Shown here: positions 9,925 to 13,973 of the stretch, one piece after another | How positions within the stretch are numbered: the stretch's first letter is position 1 | Layout of the letters: every line of letters starts with the position of its first letter | Assembly (NCBI GenBank): GCA_918797485.1 | Contig: CAKKNE010000003.1 | Coordinates: 4,030,001 to 4,094,000 of the forward strand | Length of the DNA stretch: 64,000 bases | DNA from: Pelagomonas calceolata | Lineage: Eukaryota | Direction of reading: 5' to 3' | Program-made: the position numbers and the translations under genes | Notes under the pieces: generated by a model | Told to the model about the DNA's origin: nothing | The model's input: the letters and a program-made list of their open reading frames with translations, nothing else | Databases searched by the model: none

Positions 9925-12900
9925 CTAGCACGCGTACAGCTTGAGCGTCTTGTCGCCCGACGCAGACACGACGCGCCGCCCGTCCGGGGACACGGCAACG
10001 CCATAGACCTACGACGAAGACACATCAGCACAAAAGTACAGTGGACGCCGCAACGCACGTAATCCGAGTGCCCTTCCAGCGTCGCCACGCACTCGCCGGT
10101 CGCCACGTCCCAGACCTTGAGCGTCTTGTCCCACGACGCAGACACGACGCGCCGCCCGTCCGGAGAAATGGCGACGCCGCGGACCTACGACGAAGACGCA
10201 TCATCACAAAAGTACAGCGGACGCCGCGCCGCACTCTGTTAGAGTGCCCTTGCAGCGTCGCCACGCATTTACCGGTCGCCACGTCCCATACCTTGAGCGT
10301 CTTGTCGTACGACCCCGACACGACGCGCCGCCCGTCCGGAAACACGGCAACACCGCGGACCTACGACGAAGCCAGATCATCACAAAAGTACAGTGGACGC
10401 CGCAACGCACGTCTCTCGAGTGCCCTTCCAGCGTCGCCACGCACTTGCCGGTCTCGAGGTCCCACACCTTGAGCGTGTTGTCGAACGACCCAGACACGAC
10501 GCGCCGCCCGTCCGGAAACACGGCAACGCAATAGACCTAGGACGAAGCCAGATCATCACAAAAGTACAGCGGACGCCGCAACGCACGTCGTTCGAGTGCC
10601 CTTCCAGCGTCGCCACGCACTCGCCGGTCGCCACGTCCCACACCTTGAGCGTATTGTCAATCGACGCAGACACGACGCGCCGCCCGTCCGGAAACACCGC
10701 AACGCAGCAGACCTACGACGAAGCCAGATCATCACAAAAGTACAGCGGACGCCGCAACGCACGTAATCCGAGTGCCCTTTCAGCGTCGCCACGCACTCGC
10801 CGGTCGCCACGTCCCACACCTTGAGCGTGTTGTCGTACGACGCAGAAACGACGCGCCGCCCGTCCGGAAACACGGCAACGCCCCAGACCTACGACGAAGC
10901 CAGATCATCACAAAAGTACAGTGGACGCCGCAACGCACTCTCTCAGAGTGTCCTTCCAGCGTCGCCACGCATACGCCGGTCGCGATGTCCCACACCTTGA
11001 GCGTCTTGTCGTCCGACGCAGACACGATGCGCCGCCCGTCAAGAAACACGGCAACGCCCCGGACCTACGACGACGACAGATCATCACAAAAGTACAGCGG
11101 ACGCCGCAACGCACTCTGTCCGAGTGCCCTTCCAGCGTCCGCAGCTCGACGAGCTTCGATGGATCGAGTTCGAAAAACGGCATGAACCGCAGGTCGCCGC
11201 GCGCCACCGTCGCGACCGCGCTCGCGTCCCAGATCGACTGCAGCACCTTCATCGGTTCGGGTTCCGACGGGGTGGTGGCGGCGTCCGCGTCGACTGCAGC
11301 CTTTTCCGCCACAGGCGCGTCGACGGCGCCGTTTGGTGACGCCTCCTGTGCGCCGTCACTACCGCGCGCAGGTGCCGAAGACGCTTTGCTAACAGCAGTA
11401 GCGTCGCCATGAGTCGCAACGGGTGCCGAAGTCTCTTCAACCACAGCACCGACAACATCGTCCGCCGCCGTCTCCGCCCGATTCCCGCGCTCCGCGGCAT
11501 CACTATAACCTCCACCAGCGACCAGCTCGACGCGCCCCAGGAACTCGAGCCACCCGCCCGGCAACGCTTCATTCACGACAGCAACCGCGAGCTGCGCGCG
11601 CGTCATCGCGCGATACAAACGCGACCGCGTCTCGAGCACGCCCGCGCCGCGATCGATGACTTGGTCCAGTCCAACGCAAATAACGACGAGCCGTTCCAAA
11701 CCGTCCATGTTATCCACACTATCGACAACAAGCAGCTGCTTCGCGTCGGCGGCGCGCGCCTCGGTGTCACCGCGCGGCAAGACCGCGCTCGCCGTCGCCG
11801 CGTCGACGAGCTCGAATCCTCCCAGAGCGCGAGCGAGCGGCTCGCGGAGCTTCTCAATAAATGCTTCATCTGGCCCGACGACCGCCACGCGGTCATCCAG
11901 GTCCTCCAAATCCACGAGCTGGCGCCGGATGGCCGCCAGCGCCTCGACGACCTCGCGCGCATAGGTCTCGCCGGCATCGTCGCCTTCAGATGTCGTAAAG
12001 ACCCTCGCCACGAGCGGCGGCCCCGCTGATGCCGAATGCGTCGACGTCTCGGCTTTGCGCCCGGCCTCGAGCTGGAACGCGGCGGCGCCCGCGACAATGC
12101 GCTTCGTCGAACGGACGACCTCGGATAGCGTCGCCACGACGACGTCCTGCTCCTGTGGCAGTTCCACGAGCGAGCGCGCGATCTCATCCGGACTTTGCAT
12201 CGCTGCCGTCGCCTGCGAGGCGTCGCCGAGGAACAAGAGGCTCGATTCGGCAGCACCAAGCTCCGCGAGCTCCGATCGAAGCGAGGAGTCGCCCACGAGG
12301 TGGTGGGCCTCGTCGACGACGATGAGCGCGTACGTCGTGGCCTCGACACGCGAATTCCCAAACATGAGCCGCCGTCGCCCGCCCGCCGCCTCGACGTGGA
12401 CGCGCCGCGGCCCACTCGAAAACGGCGCCACCAACACGTGCACGCGCTCCACAACATGCTCGGCAGACTTGCGCGACGCGACGACGAGCCACTTGCAGAC
12501 AAAGAGCGCCAGCGCTTCGTTTCGCGCCACGAAAAGGACCGTCGCATCGGGATCTTCATTCAGCACCTGCACCACACGTTGGACAGCAACGAAGGTCTTC
12601 CCACCGCCCGCGGGTGCGAGCAGCACCGCGACCTTTGCGCCTCGCACTTCCGTGAGCTTCTCGCGCTGATGCATCGTCAGCTTCGCGAACCGCATCATGA
12701 TCCGCGCGTAGCACTCCATGAACGCGCCCCGGTCTACGTGGACATCGACGCTCTCGACTCGGATCTTTGCGTCCGGCGGCGCGCCCAGAGAACTGTCGGA
12801 GTCTCCCGCGAGGAAGCGCTCGTTTTTTAGCAGACACCTGCCGCTCTGGCTCATCGACGCGCTAAAGCCCAGCTCCTTCATCTTGTCGCTCGTTGCGAGC

Positions 12901-13973
12901 TTCTCCGCGAGCTGAGAGGCGTCGTGGGGGAGCGCGGCGTTGATCGCGGTCTCGAAGGAGCCCTCGAAGAGCACGGCGTCGCGCAGCCGGGCGAGGGCGC
13001 AAACGTCGGCGATGCCTAGCCGAACGTGCGCGTGGACCGCGCCGCCGGCGTTGTACACGTTCGCCACTTCGCAACCCGCGGGCAAGGCCTCGTCCAAGGC
13101 ATCCTCGAGCACCACGACGTGGCCGCACGCGTCCAGGATCGACTGCCCGCCGTCCGCCGCTAGACACAGCACCTGCTCGCTCTCGAGGTCCAGACCGTCG
13201 ATGGCGCGCCGGAGCGCCTCGTCGGTTCCTTTTTCGAGCACGCGTTCCACGTCGTAGACCTTGTGGGCGTGACCCTTGATGTTTTGGATTTGACGCAAAT
13301 TGAGCTGGAGTTCACCTATGAATCCCGTGTCCGCCACCTCGACGAACAACTTCATATCTCGATAGCCCGAGTCGTGCTTGTGCGCGAAGAACGCGTCCTT
13401 GCAGCGCCGGACGGTGAGCCCGTCGATCGTCCCGCGAAACGCCGAGGCAGCCGTGTTCAGGGCTTCCAGCGAGTCGAAGAGACCCGTGGCGCGCTCGACA
13501 TCAACTACTCGCGCCACGTCGCCCTCGTAGTCGTTCTCCGCCTTGTCCTTGATGCGCTCCACCTTTTTCGTTGGTCCGTGCACGTACTCGCCGCCCGCCT
13601 TCGTCACGAGTCCCTCGAGGGCCGCATGCAGCGCGGCGCCGTGGCGGCTCGCCATGTCGACGAGCGCGCTGGGGGTGTTCGCGGGCAGCGCGCACCGCGG
13701 CTCCGCCTCGTGGAAGTCTTCCACCAGCGCGGCGCACGCGTCGCGCAGTTCGTCGACGGCGGCGCCCTTCCTCGCCGTGTACGACTGCCACCCCGCGACG
13801 TAGCGCTCCTTGATGCGCTCGTTCGCGCCGTCCACGACTTTTCGCACCTTGCCGCGGTCGCAGCTCGCGACGTCGAGGCTGCCGCGCGGCGTGCGCGGGA
13901 CGACGCGGGCGAAGTCCTGCTCCAGAGCCTCTGTGAGCTCCTCGACGTCGATGAAGCTGGCGCCGGCGCCCAT
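9925..13973 (-). CDS. N-myristoylation motif + RelA/SpoT-like nucleotidyltransferase + SF1 (Schlafen/UvrD-like) helicase + 7 WD40 repeats. Exons 13973-11115, 11064-10939, 10888-10763, 10712-10587, 10536-10411, 10360-10235, 10184-10059, 10008-9925
   Basis: MGAGAS start; [57 protein letters not shown]; seven 50-bp GT-AG introns; ends LKLYAC*. Confidence 0.85.
9940..11140 (-). repeat. Tandem WD40 exon-intron array 2 (7 units of 176 bp)
   Basis: Same exon and intron consensus as array 1, with regular 176-bp period. Confidence 0.95.

What the first reader, a model, noticed from the sequence alone, without database searches (positions are those of the whole stretch)
11500..13973. Eukaryotic RelA/SpoT-like synthetase + SF1 helicase + WD40 fusion
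Seen: MGAGAS myristoylation-type start, RSH-type motifs ([26 protein letters not shown]; about 13240-13590) with no hydrolase domain, and helicase motifs of Schlafen/UvrD type (about 11540-12640). Known: bacterial small alarmone synthetases (toxSAS, CapRel) act as anti-phage toxins, and Schlafen helicases are antiviral in animals. Inference: a membrane-anchored, sensor-activated nucleotide second-messenger or tRNA-pyrophosphorylating effector. I do not know this architecture as described.
Basis: partly seen in the sequence, partly recalled or inferred. Interest (0 to 1): 0.85.

Follow-up and report, generated by a model that had tools for sequence, protein, structure and literature searches.

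The report
Algal immune receptor with alarmone-toxin domain
A marine alga carries a spliced, expressed gene that joins a domain folded like bacterial alarmone-making toxins to a Schlafen-like helicase and a fast-varying WD40 repeat sensor, so it likely acts as an immune receptor that would shut the cell down by making an unusual nucleotide, a chemistry not yet reported in algae.

Summary
It encodes an MG-xxx-S start, a RelA/SpoT synthetase domain with all catalytic motifs and no hydrolase, an unidentified alpha/beta linker, an SF1 helicase (top structural match SLFN11, tied with other SF1 helicases) and seven WD40 repeats, one per exon. The synthetase fold is clear (pLDDT 92; Z about 12). Its closest solved relative by sequence is the (p)ppApp toxin Tas1 (E 1e-18), but the acceptor motif (GYRD) matches neither Tas1/Apk2 nor RelA, so the product is open. 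The domain is under purifying selection (dN/dS 0.13-0.32). WD40 repeats vary at four fixed positions, and their introns are 94% identical to those of an RPW8-like kinase gene next door. Relatives occur in Pelagomonas and Aureococcus; the domain belongs to a clade fused to kinases, ANK, TPR and LRR. Best reading: an NLR-like defence protein releasing a nucleotide pyrophosphokinase, most likely making (p)ppApp. The layout echoes fungal RelA_SpoT-NACHT-WD40 NLRs, so this is a new variant, not a new kind. No activity was shown.

The parts
11115..13973 (-). Exon 1 coding part, 953 codons: N-terminal motif, synthetase, linker, helicase, low-complexity spacer, start of first WD40 repeat
   Evidence: stranded poly(A) reads
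13956..13973 (-). MGAGAS, N-myristoylation-type start (predicted)
   Evidence: sequence; 17 of 22 synthetase-helicase relatives fit a recalled consensus, some with MGNLCC
13716..13952 (-). N-terminal helices (aa 8-86) packed before the synthetase
   Evidence: AlphaFold model
13188..13691 (-). RelA/SpoT synthetase domain, Tas1/Apk-like, aa 95-262; Syn1 13568-13542, Syn2 13502-13485, Syn3 GYRD 13367-13356, Syn4 13313-13299, HxxY 13265-13254
   Evidence: dN/dS 0.13-0.32
12684..13190 (-). Linker region aa 262-430 holding a small alpha/beta domain (aa 262-348), fold not identified
   Evidence: model; present in 26 of 26 synthetase-bearing helicase relatives and in 20 others; no Pfam or Atlas hit
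11529..12680 (-). SF1 helicase-type ATPase, two RecA folds, aa 432 to about 815; Walker A, DEAH, GDASQ, EVVRS, DGLER and TRAQ motifs intact
11065..11114 (-). Intron 1, 50 nt, GT..AG, phase 0
   Evidence: spliced in 4 of 4 RNA runs
9925..11064 (-). Seven WD40 exons (six of 126 nt, last 84 nt with stop) and six further 50-nt introns; codons 2, 18, 41 and 42 of each exon are the most variable
6177..9303 (-). Neighbouring gene, 924 aa: helical N-terminus weakly like the RPW8-type domain of At5g66900, protein kinase, and seven WD40 exons of the same family
   Evidence: its exon-1 junction appears as a loose end in 420, 261, 169 and 233 reads

Best explanation
This expressed algal gene encodes a RelA/SpoT-type synthetase fold with intact catalytic motifs, a Schlafen-like helicase and a variable WD40 array, and is likely an NLR-like defence protein in which ligand binding at the WD40 propeller would switch the ATPase and release the synthetase to make, most likely, (p)ppApp. 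Shown: gene structure, expression, folds, motifs, purifying selection on the enzyme, concentrated variation in the repeats. Inferred steps: (1) the protein is anchored by N-myristoylation on the cytosolic face of a membrane; (2) the four variable positions per repeat form a ligand face that recognises a foreign, probably viral, molecule, and near-identical introns let repeats be swapped within and between genes; (3) the helicase-type ATPase works as the switch that NACHT provides in fungal NLRs, or senses nucleic acid; (4) the freed synthetase moves pyrophosphate from ATP to the 3'-OH of adenosine nucleotides, draining ATP/ADP and arresting or killing the cell. My odds: active pyrophosphokinase 0.85; defence role 0.7; (p)ppApp as main product given activity 0.55.
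For: Enzyme: Tas1 is the best PDB sequence match by 13 orders of magnitude over the next (1.2e-18 against 5.1e-5) and has the highest identity among structural matches (26%). Syn2 is RxT/RxS in 160 of 171 aligned domains, the Apk-type signature (Apk2 RYT against RSH AVR, PMC12226406), and Syn4 ends in N or H, not R. Nearest prokaryotic relatives sit on toxin carriers: eCIS-core in 5, VgrG in 1 and MuF in 1 of 59 long hits scanned. The only annotated phage match lies behind a portal gene and before a 69-aa ORF and an HD hydrolase, the gene order of Apk2 loci (PMC10083569), and it has the same GYRD motif. dN/dS is 0.13-0.32 against 11 of 12 metagenome relatives tested, none with a stop; the twelfth is near-identical. 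Immune grammar: WD40 exons are 86% identical within the gene while introns are 93-94% identical within and between the two neighbouring genes; codons 2, 18, 41 and 42 are most variable in 10 window exons and again rank first in 4 exons from 3 metagenome loci. Podospora NWD repeats are described with four selected positions and exchange between genes (PMC4986451); one-exon-per-repeat shuffling is described for brown algal candidate receptors (PMC3341825). The helicase core is modular: 26 of 120 listed relatives carry the synthetase, others carry other N-termini, and C-termini include WD40, LRR, ANK and RCC1. The neighbour has an RPW8-like head (E 0.039).
Against: Syn3 is GYRD (155 of 171), not the GxN of Apk enzymes, and swapping Syn motifs did not switch specificity in Apk2, so motifs do not fix the product. 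Structure scores tie CapRel, SAS1, SAS2 and Tas1 (Z 12.1, 12.1, 12.1, 11.9), with CapRel at the lowest rmsd (2.7 A). Exported relatives make (p)ppGpp only or both alarmones (PMC12691689). No member of the GYRD clade was found characterised. No infection-induction data; read depth over the synthetase is low (0-24 per bin; one bin empty in 3 of 4 runs). The variable codons were first picked after seeing the window's repeats, pN/pS there is about 1 (0.42/0.43), not above 1, and the independent check has only 4 exons. The RPW8-like match of the neighbour is weak. Helicase motif V has D where many relatives have K (66 DGLER against 26 KGLEQ of 120), and ATPase activity is untested.
Confidence: 0.45

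Rival explanations
1. [quoted passage not shown]
For: CapRel ties for best structural match with the lowest rmsd (Z 12.1, 2.7 A); SLFN11 heads both fold searches of the helicase part; Schlafens restrict viruses by cleaving tRNA (abstract listing of PMC13056530); HD hydrolases also reverse tRNA pyrophosphorylation (PMC11245113), so the phage gene order does not exclude this.
Against: No tRNA-targeting toxSAS appears among PDB sequence hits of three profiles; identity to CapRel is 15% against 26% to Tas1 and FaRel2 scores Z 6.0; the domain is net acidic (23 K+R, 27 D+E; 2 K+R in aa 95-135), whereas tRNA toxSAS use basic surfaces. Surface charge on the model was not computed.
Confidence: 0.2
2. 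The enzyme makes a non-lethal second messenger ((p)ppGpp, (p)ppApp or another pyrophosphorylated nucleotide) read by a downstream algal receptor, as part of regulated stress or defence signalling.
For: The domain is fused to kinases in 12 of 59 long representatives and to ANK, TPR, LRR and LIM-villin domains in others, typical of signalling proteins; the gene is transcribed in culture; a hydrolase-only RSH is listed for Aureococcus anophagefferens (PMC3153485), which could reset a signal; GYRD differs from the toxin signature.
Against: Nearest prokaryotic relatives are toxin-carrier fusions; no HD hydrolase among the 44 window ORFs scanned or the 5 stretches; no receptor is known to me.
Confidence: 0.22
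3. The protein is not a defence receptor: the synthetase fold is catalytically idle or serves housekeeping, and repeat similarity reflects neutral tandem duplication.
For: No activity or infection data; the protein misses the Pfam RelA_SpoT model; pN/pS at variable codons is not above 1.
Against: Catalytic positions are kept in 91-100% of 171 domains; dN/dS 0.13-0.32; variation is confined to the same four codons across genes and genomes; the synthetase is exchanged for other heads on the same helicase.
Confidence: 0.13

Closest known systems
Tas1/Apk1 (Pseudomonas aeruginosa T6SS effector, PDB 6ox6) and MuF-fused Apk2 (p)ppApp synthetases
   Same: Fold, Syn1, Syn2 (RxT) and Syn4 pattern; best PDB sequence match (E 1.2e-18); no hydrolase domain.
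   Different: Syn3 is GYRD, not GxN; the domain is N-terminal in a eukaryotic multidomain protein without PAAR or MuF and with no immunity gene seen; it would act in the producing cell.
Fungal RelA_SpoT-NACHT-WD40 NLRs and Podospora NWD/HET-E genes (PMC4986451, passages)
   Same: Effector-NTPase-repeat order, an RSH effector, highly similar WD40 repeats with a few variable positions and exchange between genes.
   Different: The NTPase is an SF1 helicase, not STAND; each repeat is its own exon; the synthetase escapes Pfam RelA_SpoT; host is a unicellular alga. Whether the fungal domain is the same RSH clade was not tested.
Schlafen 11/14 (PDB 7zel, 9uie)
   Same: Helicase fold ranks first in both searches (Foldseek E 3.9e-9; Z 19.0, rmsd 3.8 A, 293 aligned), with an effector enzyme and a linker in front.
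   Different: Z is tied with AddB (18.8) and senataxin (18.7); no AlbA ribonuclease domain; WD40 tail added.
[quoted passage not shown]
   Same: One repeat per exon, signs of exon shuffling, stramenopile host.
   Different: WD40 rather than LRR or TPR; helicase rather than Roc-COR or NB-ARC; enzymatic effector attached.
CapRel and FaRel2 tRNA-pyrophosphorylating toxSAS
   Same: RSH synthetase fold (CapRel Z 12.1); sensor fused to toxin in CapRel.
   Different: Low identity (13-15%), no sequence-profile hit, net acidic domain, no toxin-antitoxin operon.

Membership tests
RelA/SpoT homologue synthetase domain | SYNTH nucleotidyltransferase fold | tested here: met
   pLDDT 92.4; Z 10-12 to SAS1, SAS2, CapRel, Tas1, SaEAS
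RelA/SpoT homologue synthetase domain | Syn1-Syn4 catalytic motifs | tested here: met
   K..R..K, D..R, GYR, E.Q and H..Y present and kept in 84-100% of 171 domains
RelA/SpoT homologue synthetase domain | Pfam PF04607 above cut-off | tested here: not met
   no hit for this protein; relatives P0052, P0059, P0100 and the phage protein of L004 pass it
RelA/SpoT homologue synthetase domain | Pyrophosphate transfer from ATP | not testable with these tools
   needs an enzyme assay
Apk1/Apk2 (p)ppApp synthetases | Syn2 RxT and Syn4 without the RSH IR pair | tested here: met
   DVERAT and ELQLN; Tas1 shows DLARNT and EIQVN; signature from PMC12226406
Apk1/Apk2 (p)ppApp synthetases | Syn3 GxN | tested here: not met
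   GYRD here and in 155 of 171 domains
Apk1/Apk2 (p)ppApp synthetases | N-terminal PAAR or MuF delivery domain and adjacent immunity gene | tested here: not met
   no such Pfam hit; neighbours are a kinase-WD40 gene and GDP-mannose dehydratase
Apk1/Apk2 (p)ppApp synthetases | Makes (p)ppApp, not (p)ppGpp | not testable with these tools
   needs nucleotide profiling
tRNA-targeting toxSAS (CapRel, FaRel2, PhRel2) | Basic CCA groove and acceptor-stem patch | tested here: inconclusive
   only residue counts (23 basic, 27 acidic); no surface map
Fungal-type NLR (RelA_SpoT-NACHT-WD40) | Effector-NTPase-repeat architecture with highly similar repeats | tested here: met
   exon identity 86% within the gene; four variable codons
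Fungal-type NLR (RelA_SpoT-NACHT-WD40) | STAND NTPase (NACHT or NB-ARC) | tested here: not met
   two-RecA SF1 helicase by motifs and fold; the nSTAND_NTPase5 hit is 20 bits against a cut-off of 34 and covers only the P-loop
Schlafen group III | C-terminal SF1 helicase of SLFN type | tested here: inconclusive
   Pfam SLFN-g3_helicase 28.8 bits passes its cut-off of 24 and SLFN11 ranks first, but tied within 1 Z of AddB and senataxin
Schlafen group III | N-terminal AlbA-type ribonuclease domain | tested here: not met
   N-terminal domain folds as an RSH synthetase
TRADD-N/ACT-like adaptor (for the linker) | RRM-like fold with a conserved Ser at the beta2-beta3 turn (PMC8195603) | tested here: inconclusive
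   secondary structure is compatible, Ser not seen in the alignment; the linker was not folded alone

The most novel reading that the evidence does not exclude
Microbial eukaryotes took a phage- or bacterium-derived alarmone toxin domain and built a cytosolic (p)ppApp-based (or new-nucleotide) immune pathway from it, and in pelagophyte algae a Schlafen-like SF1 helicase replaces the STAND ATPase as the switch of an NLR-like receptor family whose WD40 sensors are diversified by exon exchange between genes.
Probability: 0.4. Interest if true: 0.88.

Novelty: new variant of a known kind. Interest (0 to 1): 0.72.

Why it matters
A 2022 review states that (p)ppApp has not been reported in plants or algae (PMC10107265, passage), and alarmone synthesis in algae is discussed as a plastid matter. 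A conserved, expressed, apparently cytosolic Tas1-like enzyme makes the question directly testable with a 170-residue domain. If the receptor reading holds, it adds a helicase-switched class to NLR-like proteins and gives a first handle on antiviral or anti-parasite immunity in pelagophytes, which include abundant open-ocean and bloom-forming algae (recalled). The GYRD clade is large (5,945 representatives at E<=0.001, an unknown share of them GYRD) and mostly missed by Pfam.

Tried and rejected
No whole genome is held, so paralogues and a resetting hydrolase could not be counted genome-wide. Pfam, NCBIfam and PADLOC do not recognise the synthetase; PADLOC gives only weak helicase hits. Plastid-targeted long RSH rejected: no hydrolase domain and no hydrophobic signal stretch before the Gly2 start (sequence). 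Bacterial contaminant rejected: spliceosomal introns, poly(A) reads, eukaryotic neighbours. Linker identity: no Pfam hit, no usable Atlas hit, and the two fold searches of the 578-residue model were filled by helicases; TRADD-N stays a lead only. The idea that other helicase relatives (P0215) share the neighbour's N-terminal domain found no support (best E 0.24). Pfam named no N-terminal effector for most of 30 synthetase-free helicase relatives. GTDB scan gave only 4 distant loci (27-33%) and the viral scan 3 (31-36%). A search for HD hydrolases beside those loci used the wrong query ORF and is uninformative. Names were missing for most clade members, so 'eukaryotic' is mostly inferred from architecture. 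No complex was predicted. Literature searches found no description of this architecture or of a eukaryotic Tas1-like clade; supplements of the RSH censuses (PMC3153485, PMC7229694) were not read and may list such sequences.
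Full report
Gene. The finding is a real nuclear gene of a eukaryote. On the minus strand, an ATG at 13973 opens 953 codons without a stop up to 11115. A 176-nt tandem array follows (6.8 copies); each unit is a 126-nt exon for one WD40 repeat plus a 50-nt GT..AG phase-0 intron. Seven introns give eight exons, a stop at 9925 and 1,232 aa. Stranded poly(A) reads from 4 runs of one sample lie on the expected strand from about 14080 downward, and intron 1 is spliced in all 4 (27, 30, 15, 28 reads). 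Depth over the synthetase is low, with empty bins in some runs; an identical 828-nt contig from a run guessed to be RNA and an identical 299-nt contig from a poly(A) metatranscriptome cover it. Named relatives are Pelagomonas calceolata (63% over aa 262-830) and Aureococcus anophagefferens (about 50% in the synthetase), so the host is a pelagophyte. No whole genome is held.

Synthetase. Pfam, NCBIfam and PADLOC miss aa 95-262. The only PDB sequence hit of aa 1-324 is Tas1 (E 1.1e-5); a 74-sequence profile gives Tas1 1.2e-18, YwaC 5.1e-5 and an exported Streptomyces synthetase 0.006. The model of aa 1-268 has pLDDT 92.4. Foldseek ranks Tas1 first, with 51 matches at E<=0.001, every listed one an RSH. 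VIA-align ties CapRel (Z 12.1, rmsd 2.7, 157 aligned), SAS1 (12.1), SAS2 (12.1) and Tas1 (11.9, rmsd 4.3, 26% identity, the highest). Catalytic positions are kept in the query and in 84-100% of 171 aligned domains. Against 11 of 12 metagenome relatives dN/dS is 0.13-0.32 with no stops; the twelfth has no synonymous difference. There is no hydrolase domain.

Which product? A study of Apk2 enzymes gives the signatures RYT, GxN and YH for (p)ppApp makers against AVR, SxH and IR for (p)ppGpp makers, and reports that swapping them did not change specificity (PMC12226406, parts 2-3 of 4 read). The query has RAT and ELQLN, like Tas1's RNT and EIQVN, but GYRD at the acceptor motif, as do 155 of 171 domains. 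So it leans Apk-like on two motifs and is distinct on the third. Exported synthetases of this wider group make (p)ppApp, (p)ppGpp or both (PMC12691689, part 1 of 11 and passages). RelA/SpoT-like toxin domains on T7SS, T3SS and MuF carriers have been known since 2012 (PMC3482391, passages).

Family. A 13-sequence profile finds 5,945 representatives at E<=0.001. Of 59 long top hits scanned, 12 carry a kinase, 2 ANK, 2 TPR, 2 LRR_6, 1 LIM plus villin headpiece, 5 eCIS-core, 1 VgrG and 1 MuF; an LRR-Roc fusion appeared earlier. In a tree of 145 domains (175 before removing near-duplicates; top hits only; Tas1 absent; rooted on the VgrG fusion), 90 sequences that include all eukaryote-type architectures and a Guillardia theta protein form one group (SH-aLRT 95.1), next to 14 mostly phage-type sequences (83.1). 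FastTree with midpoint rooting gave an 83-member group (0.938) and left the Guillardia branch outside, so a single origin is not established. Most members are unnamed. The one annotated phage match, Bordetella phage PHB04 (32% identity), lies after the portal gene and before a 69-aa ORF and an HD hydrolase, the order described for Apk2, immunity protein and Aph1 (PMC10083569, passages), and has GYRD; Pfam found no MuF domain in it.

Helicase and linker. Aa 432-815 have Q, Walker A, DEAH, GDASQ, EVVRS, DGLER and TRAQ motifs. A model of aa 257-834 (pLDDT 71.9) matches SLFN11 first in Foldseek (E 3.9e-9) and in the wide search (Z 19.0, rmsd 3.8), tied with AddB and senataxin. The 120 listed relatives (of 131) come from pelagophytes, Symbiodinium, Effrenium, a cryptophyte and metagenomes; 26 of 120 carry the synthetase, all 26 with the linker domain, and 20 more have the linker without it. 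Tails include WD40, LRR, ANK, RCC1 and a caspase domain. The linker holds a small alpha/beta domain that I could not name; TRADD-N (PMC8195603, passages) is an untested lead. An MG-xxx-S/C start is found in 17 of 22 synthetase-bearing relatives with a full N-terminus and 3 of 38 without the synthetase (consensus recalled; sequences are related, so not independent).

Sensor. The six full WD40 exons are 86% identical to each other, their introns 93%, and introns are 94% identical to those of the neighbouring gene. Across 10 exons of both genes, codons 2, 18, 41 and 42 take 5-6 different residues, most others one or two; pN/pS is 0.42/0.43 on a seven-codon set chosen after seeing the data and 0.04/0.15 elsewhere. 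In 4 exons from 3 metagenome loci the same four codons rank first. That these are the propeller's top-face binding positions is recalled, not tested. Podospora NWD genes show the same regime, and RelA_SpoT-NACHT-WD40 is a listed fungal NLR type (PMC4986451, passages). [quoted passage not shown] The neighbour (9303-6177) has a kinase (E 7.6e-42), a head weakly like the RPW8-type domain of At5g66900 (E 0.039) and the same WD40 exons, which fits a small defence cluster.

Mechanism. Most likely the protein rests autoinhibited at a membrane; a foreign ligand bound by the propeller, or nucleic acid bound by the helicase, flips the ATPase and frees the synthetase, which makes (p)ppApp and drains ATP. 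Every step after the anatomy is inferred. Rivals are tRNA pyrophosphorylation (0.2; basic surfaces expected per PMC11245113, passages, while this domain is net acidic), a non-lethal messenger (0.22) and no defence role (0.13).

Novelty. Scattered synthetase-only RSHs are recorded in fungi, Dictyostelium and diatoms, and a hydrolase-only RSH in Aureococcus (PMC3153485, passages). The 2020 RSH update does not use the word eukaryote in its main text (PMC7229694); a 2026 preprint on protist antiviral immunity has no RelA or alarmone mention; a review reports no (p)ppApp in plants or algae (PMC10107265). Ten searches found no account of this architecture; supplements were not read. Two earlier AI notes of this scan describe the same kind of domain in other protists; they are unchecked and not independent support. 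Verdict: works like a fungal-type NLR with an Apk-like effector, is a member of neither family; new variant of a known kind; interest 0.72.

Noticed in passing
window 6177-9303 (-): Gene with an RPW8/MLKL-like helical head (weak match, E 0.039), a protein kinase and seven WD40 exons sharing near-identical introns with the studied gene; two exons carry 12- and 15-nt insertions. Its junction reads outnumber those of the studied gene about 8- to 15-fold.
   Followed up: partly
window 53112-55490 (+): 792-aa ORF with a TIR domain (E 9.4e-14) and a SAM domain, another immune-type protein.
   Followed up: no
window 47037-50267 (+): 1,076-aa ORF with DUF285 repeats on a 75-nt period.
   Followed up: no
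window 14360-14400: Edge of a high-copy repeat upstream of the gene: summed contig depth 7,135 and 46,207 against about 200 and 600 beside it in two DNA runs, with many different flanks.
   Followed up: no
window 29192-30316 (+): MYND finger, RINGv and TPR fusion.
   Followed up: no
window 19505-20284 and 17022-19376 (-): Ubiquitin fused to an acidic stretch and an unannotated domain, followed by ORFs without Pfam hits in a lower-GC stretch, possibly exons of one gene.
   Followed up: no
L004:3074-5339 (Bordetella phage PHB04): Portal, GYRD-type synthetase protein, 69-aa ORF and HD hydrolase in a row; a small bacterial model for testing the chemistry of the GYRD clade.
   Followed up: partly
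proteins P0098, P0119, P0132, P0047: Proteins with two synthetase domains; P0098 is from Guillardia theta, and P0119/P0132 look membrane-spanning between the two copies.
   Followed up: no
proteins P0252-P0314: A large, apparently expanded family of the same helicase in dinoflagellates and unnamed sources with unannotated N-terminal regions.
   Followed up: partly
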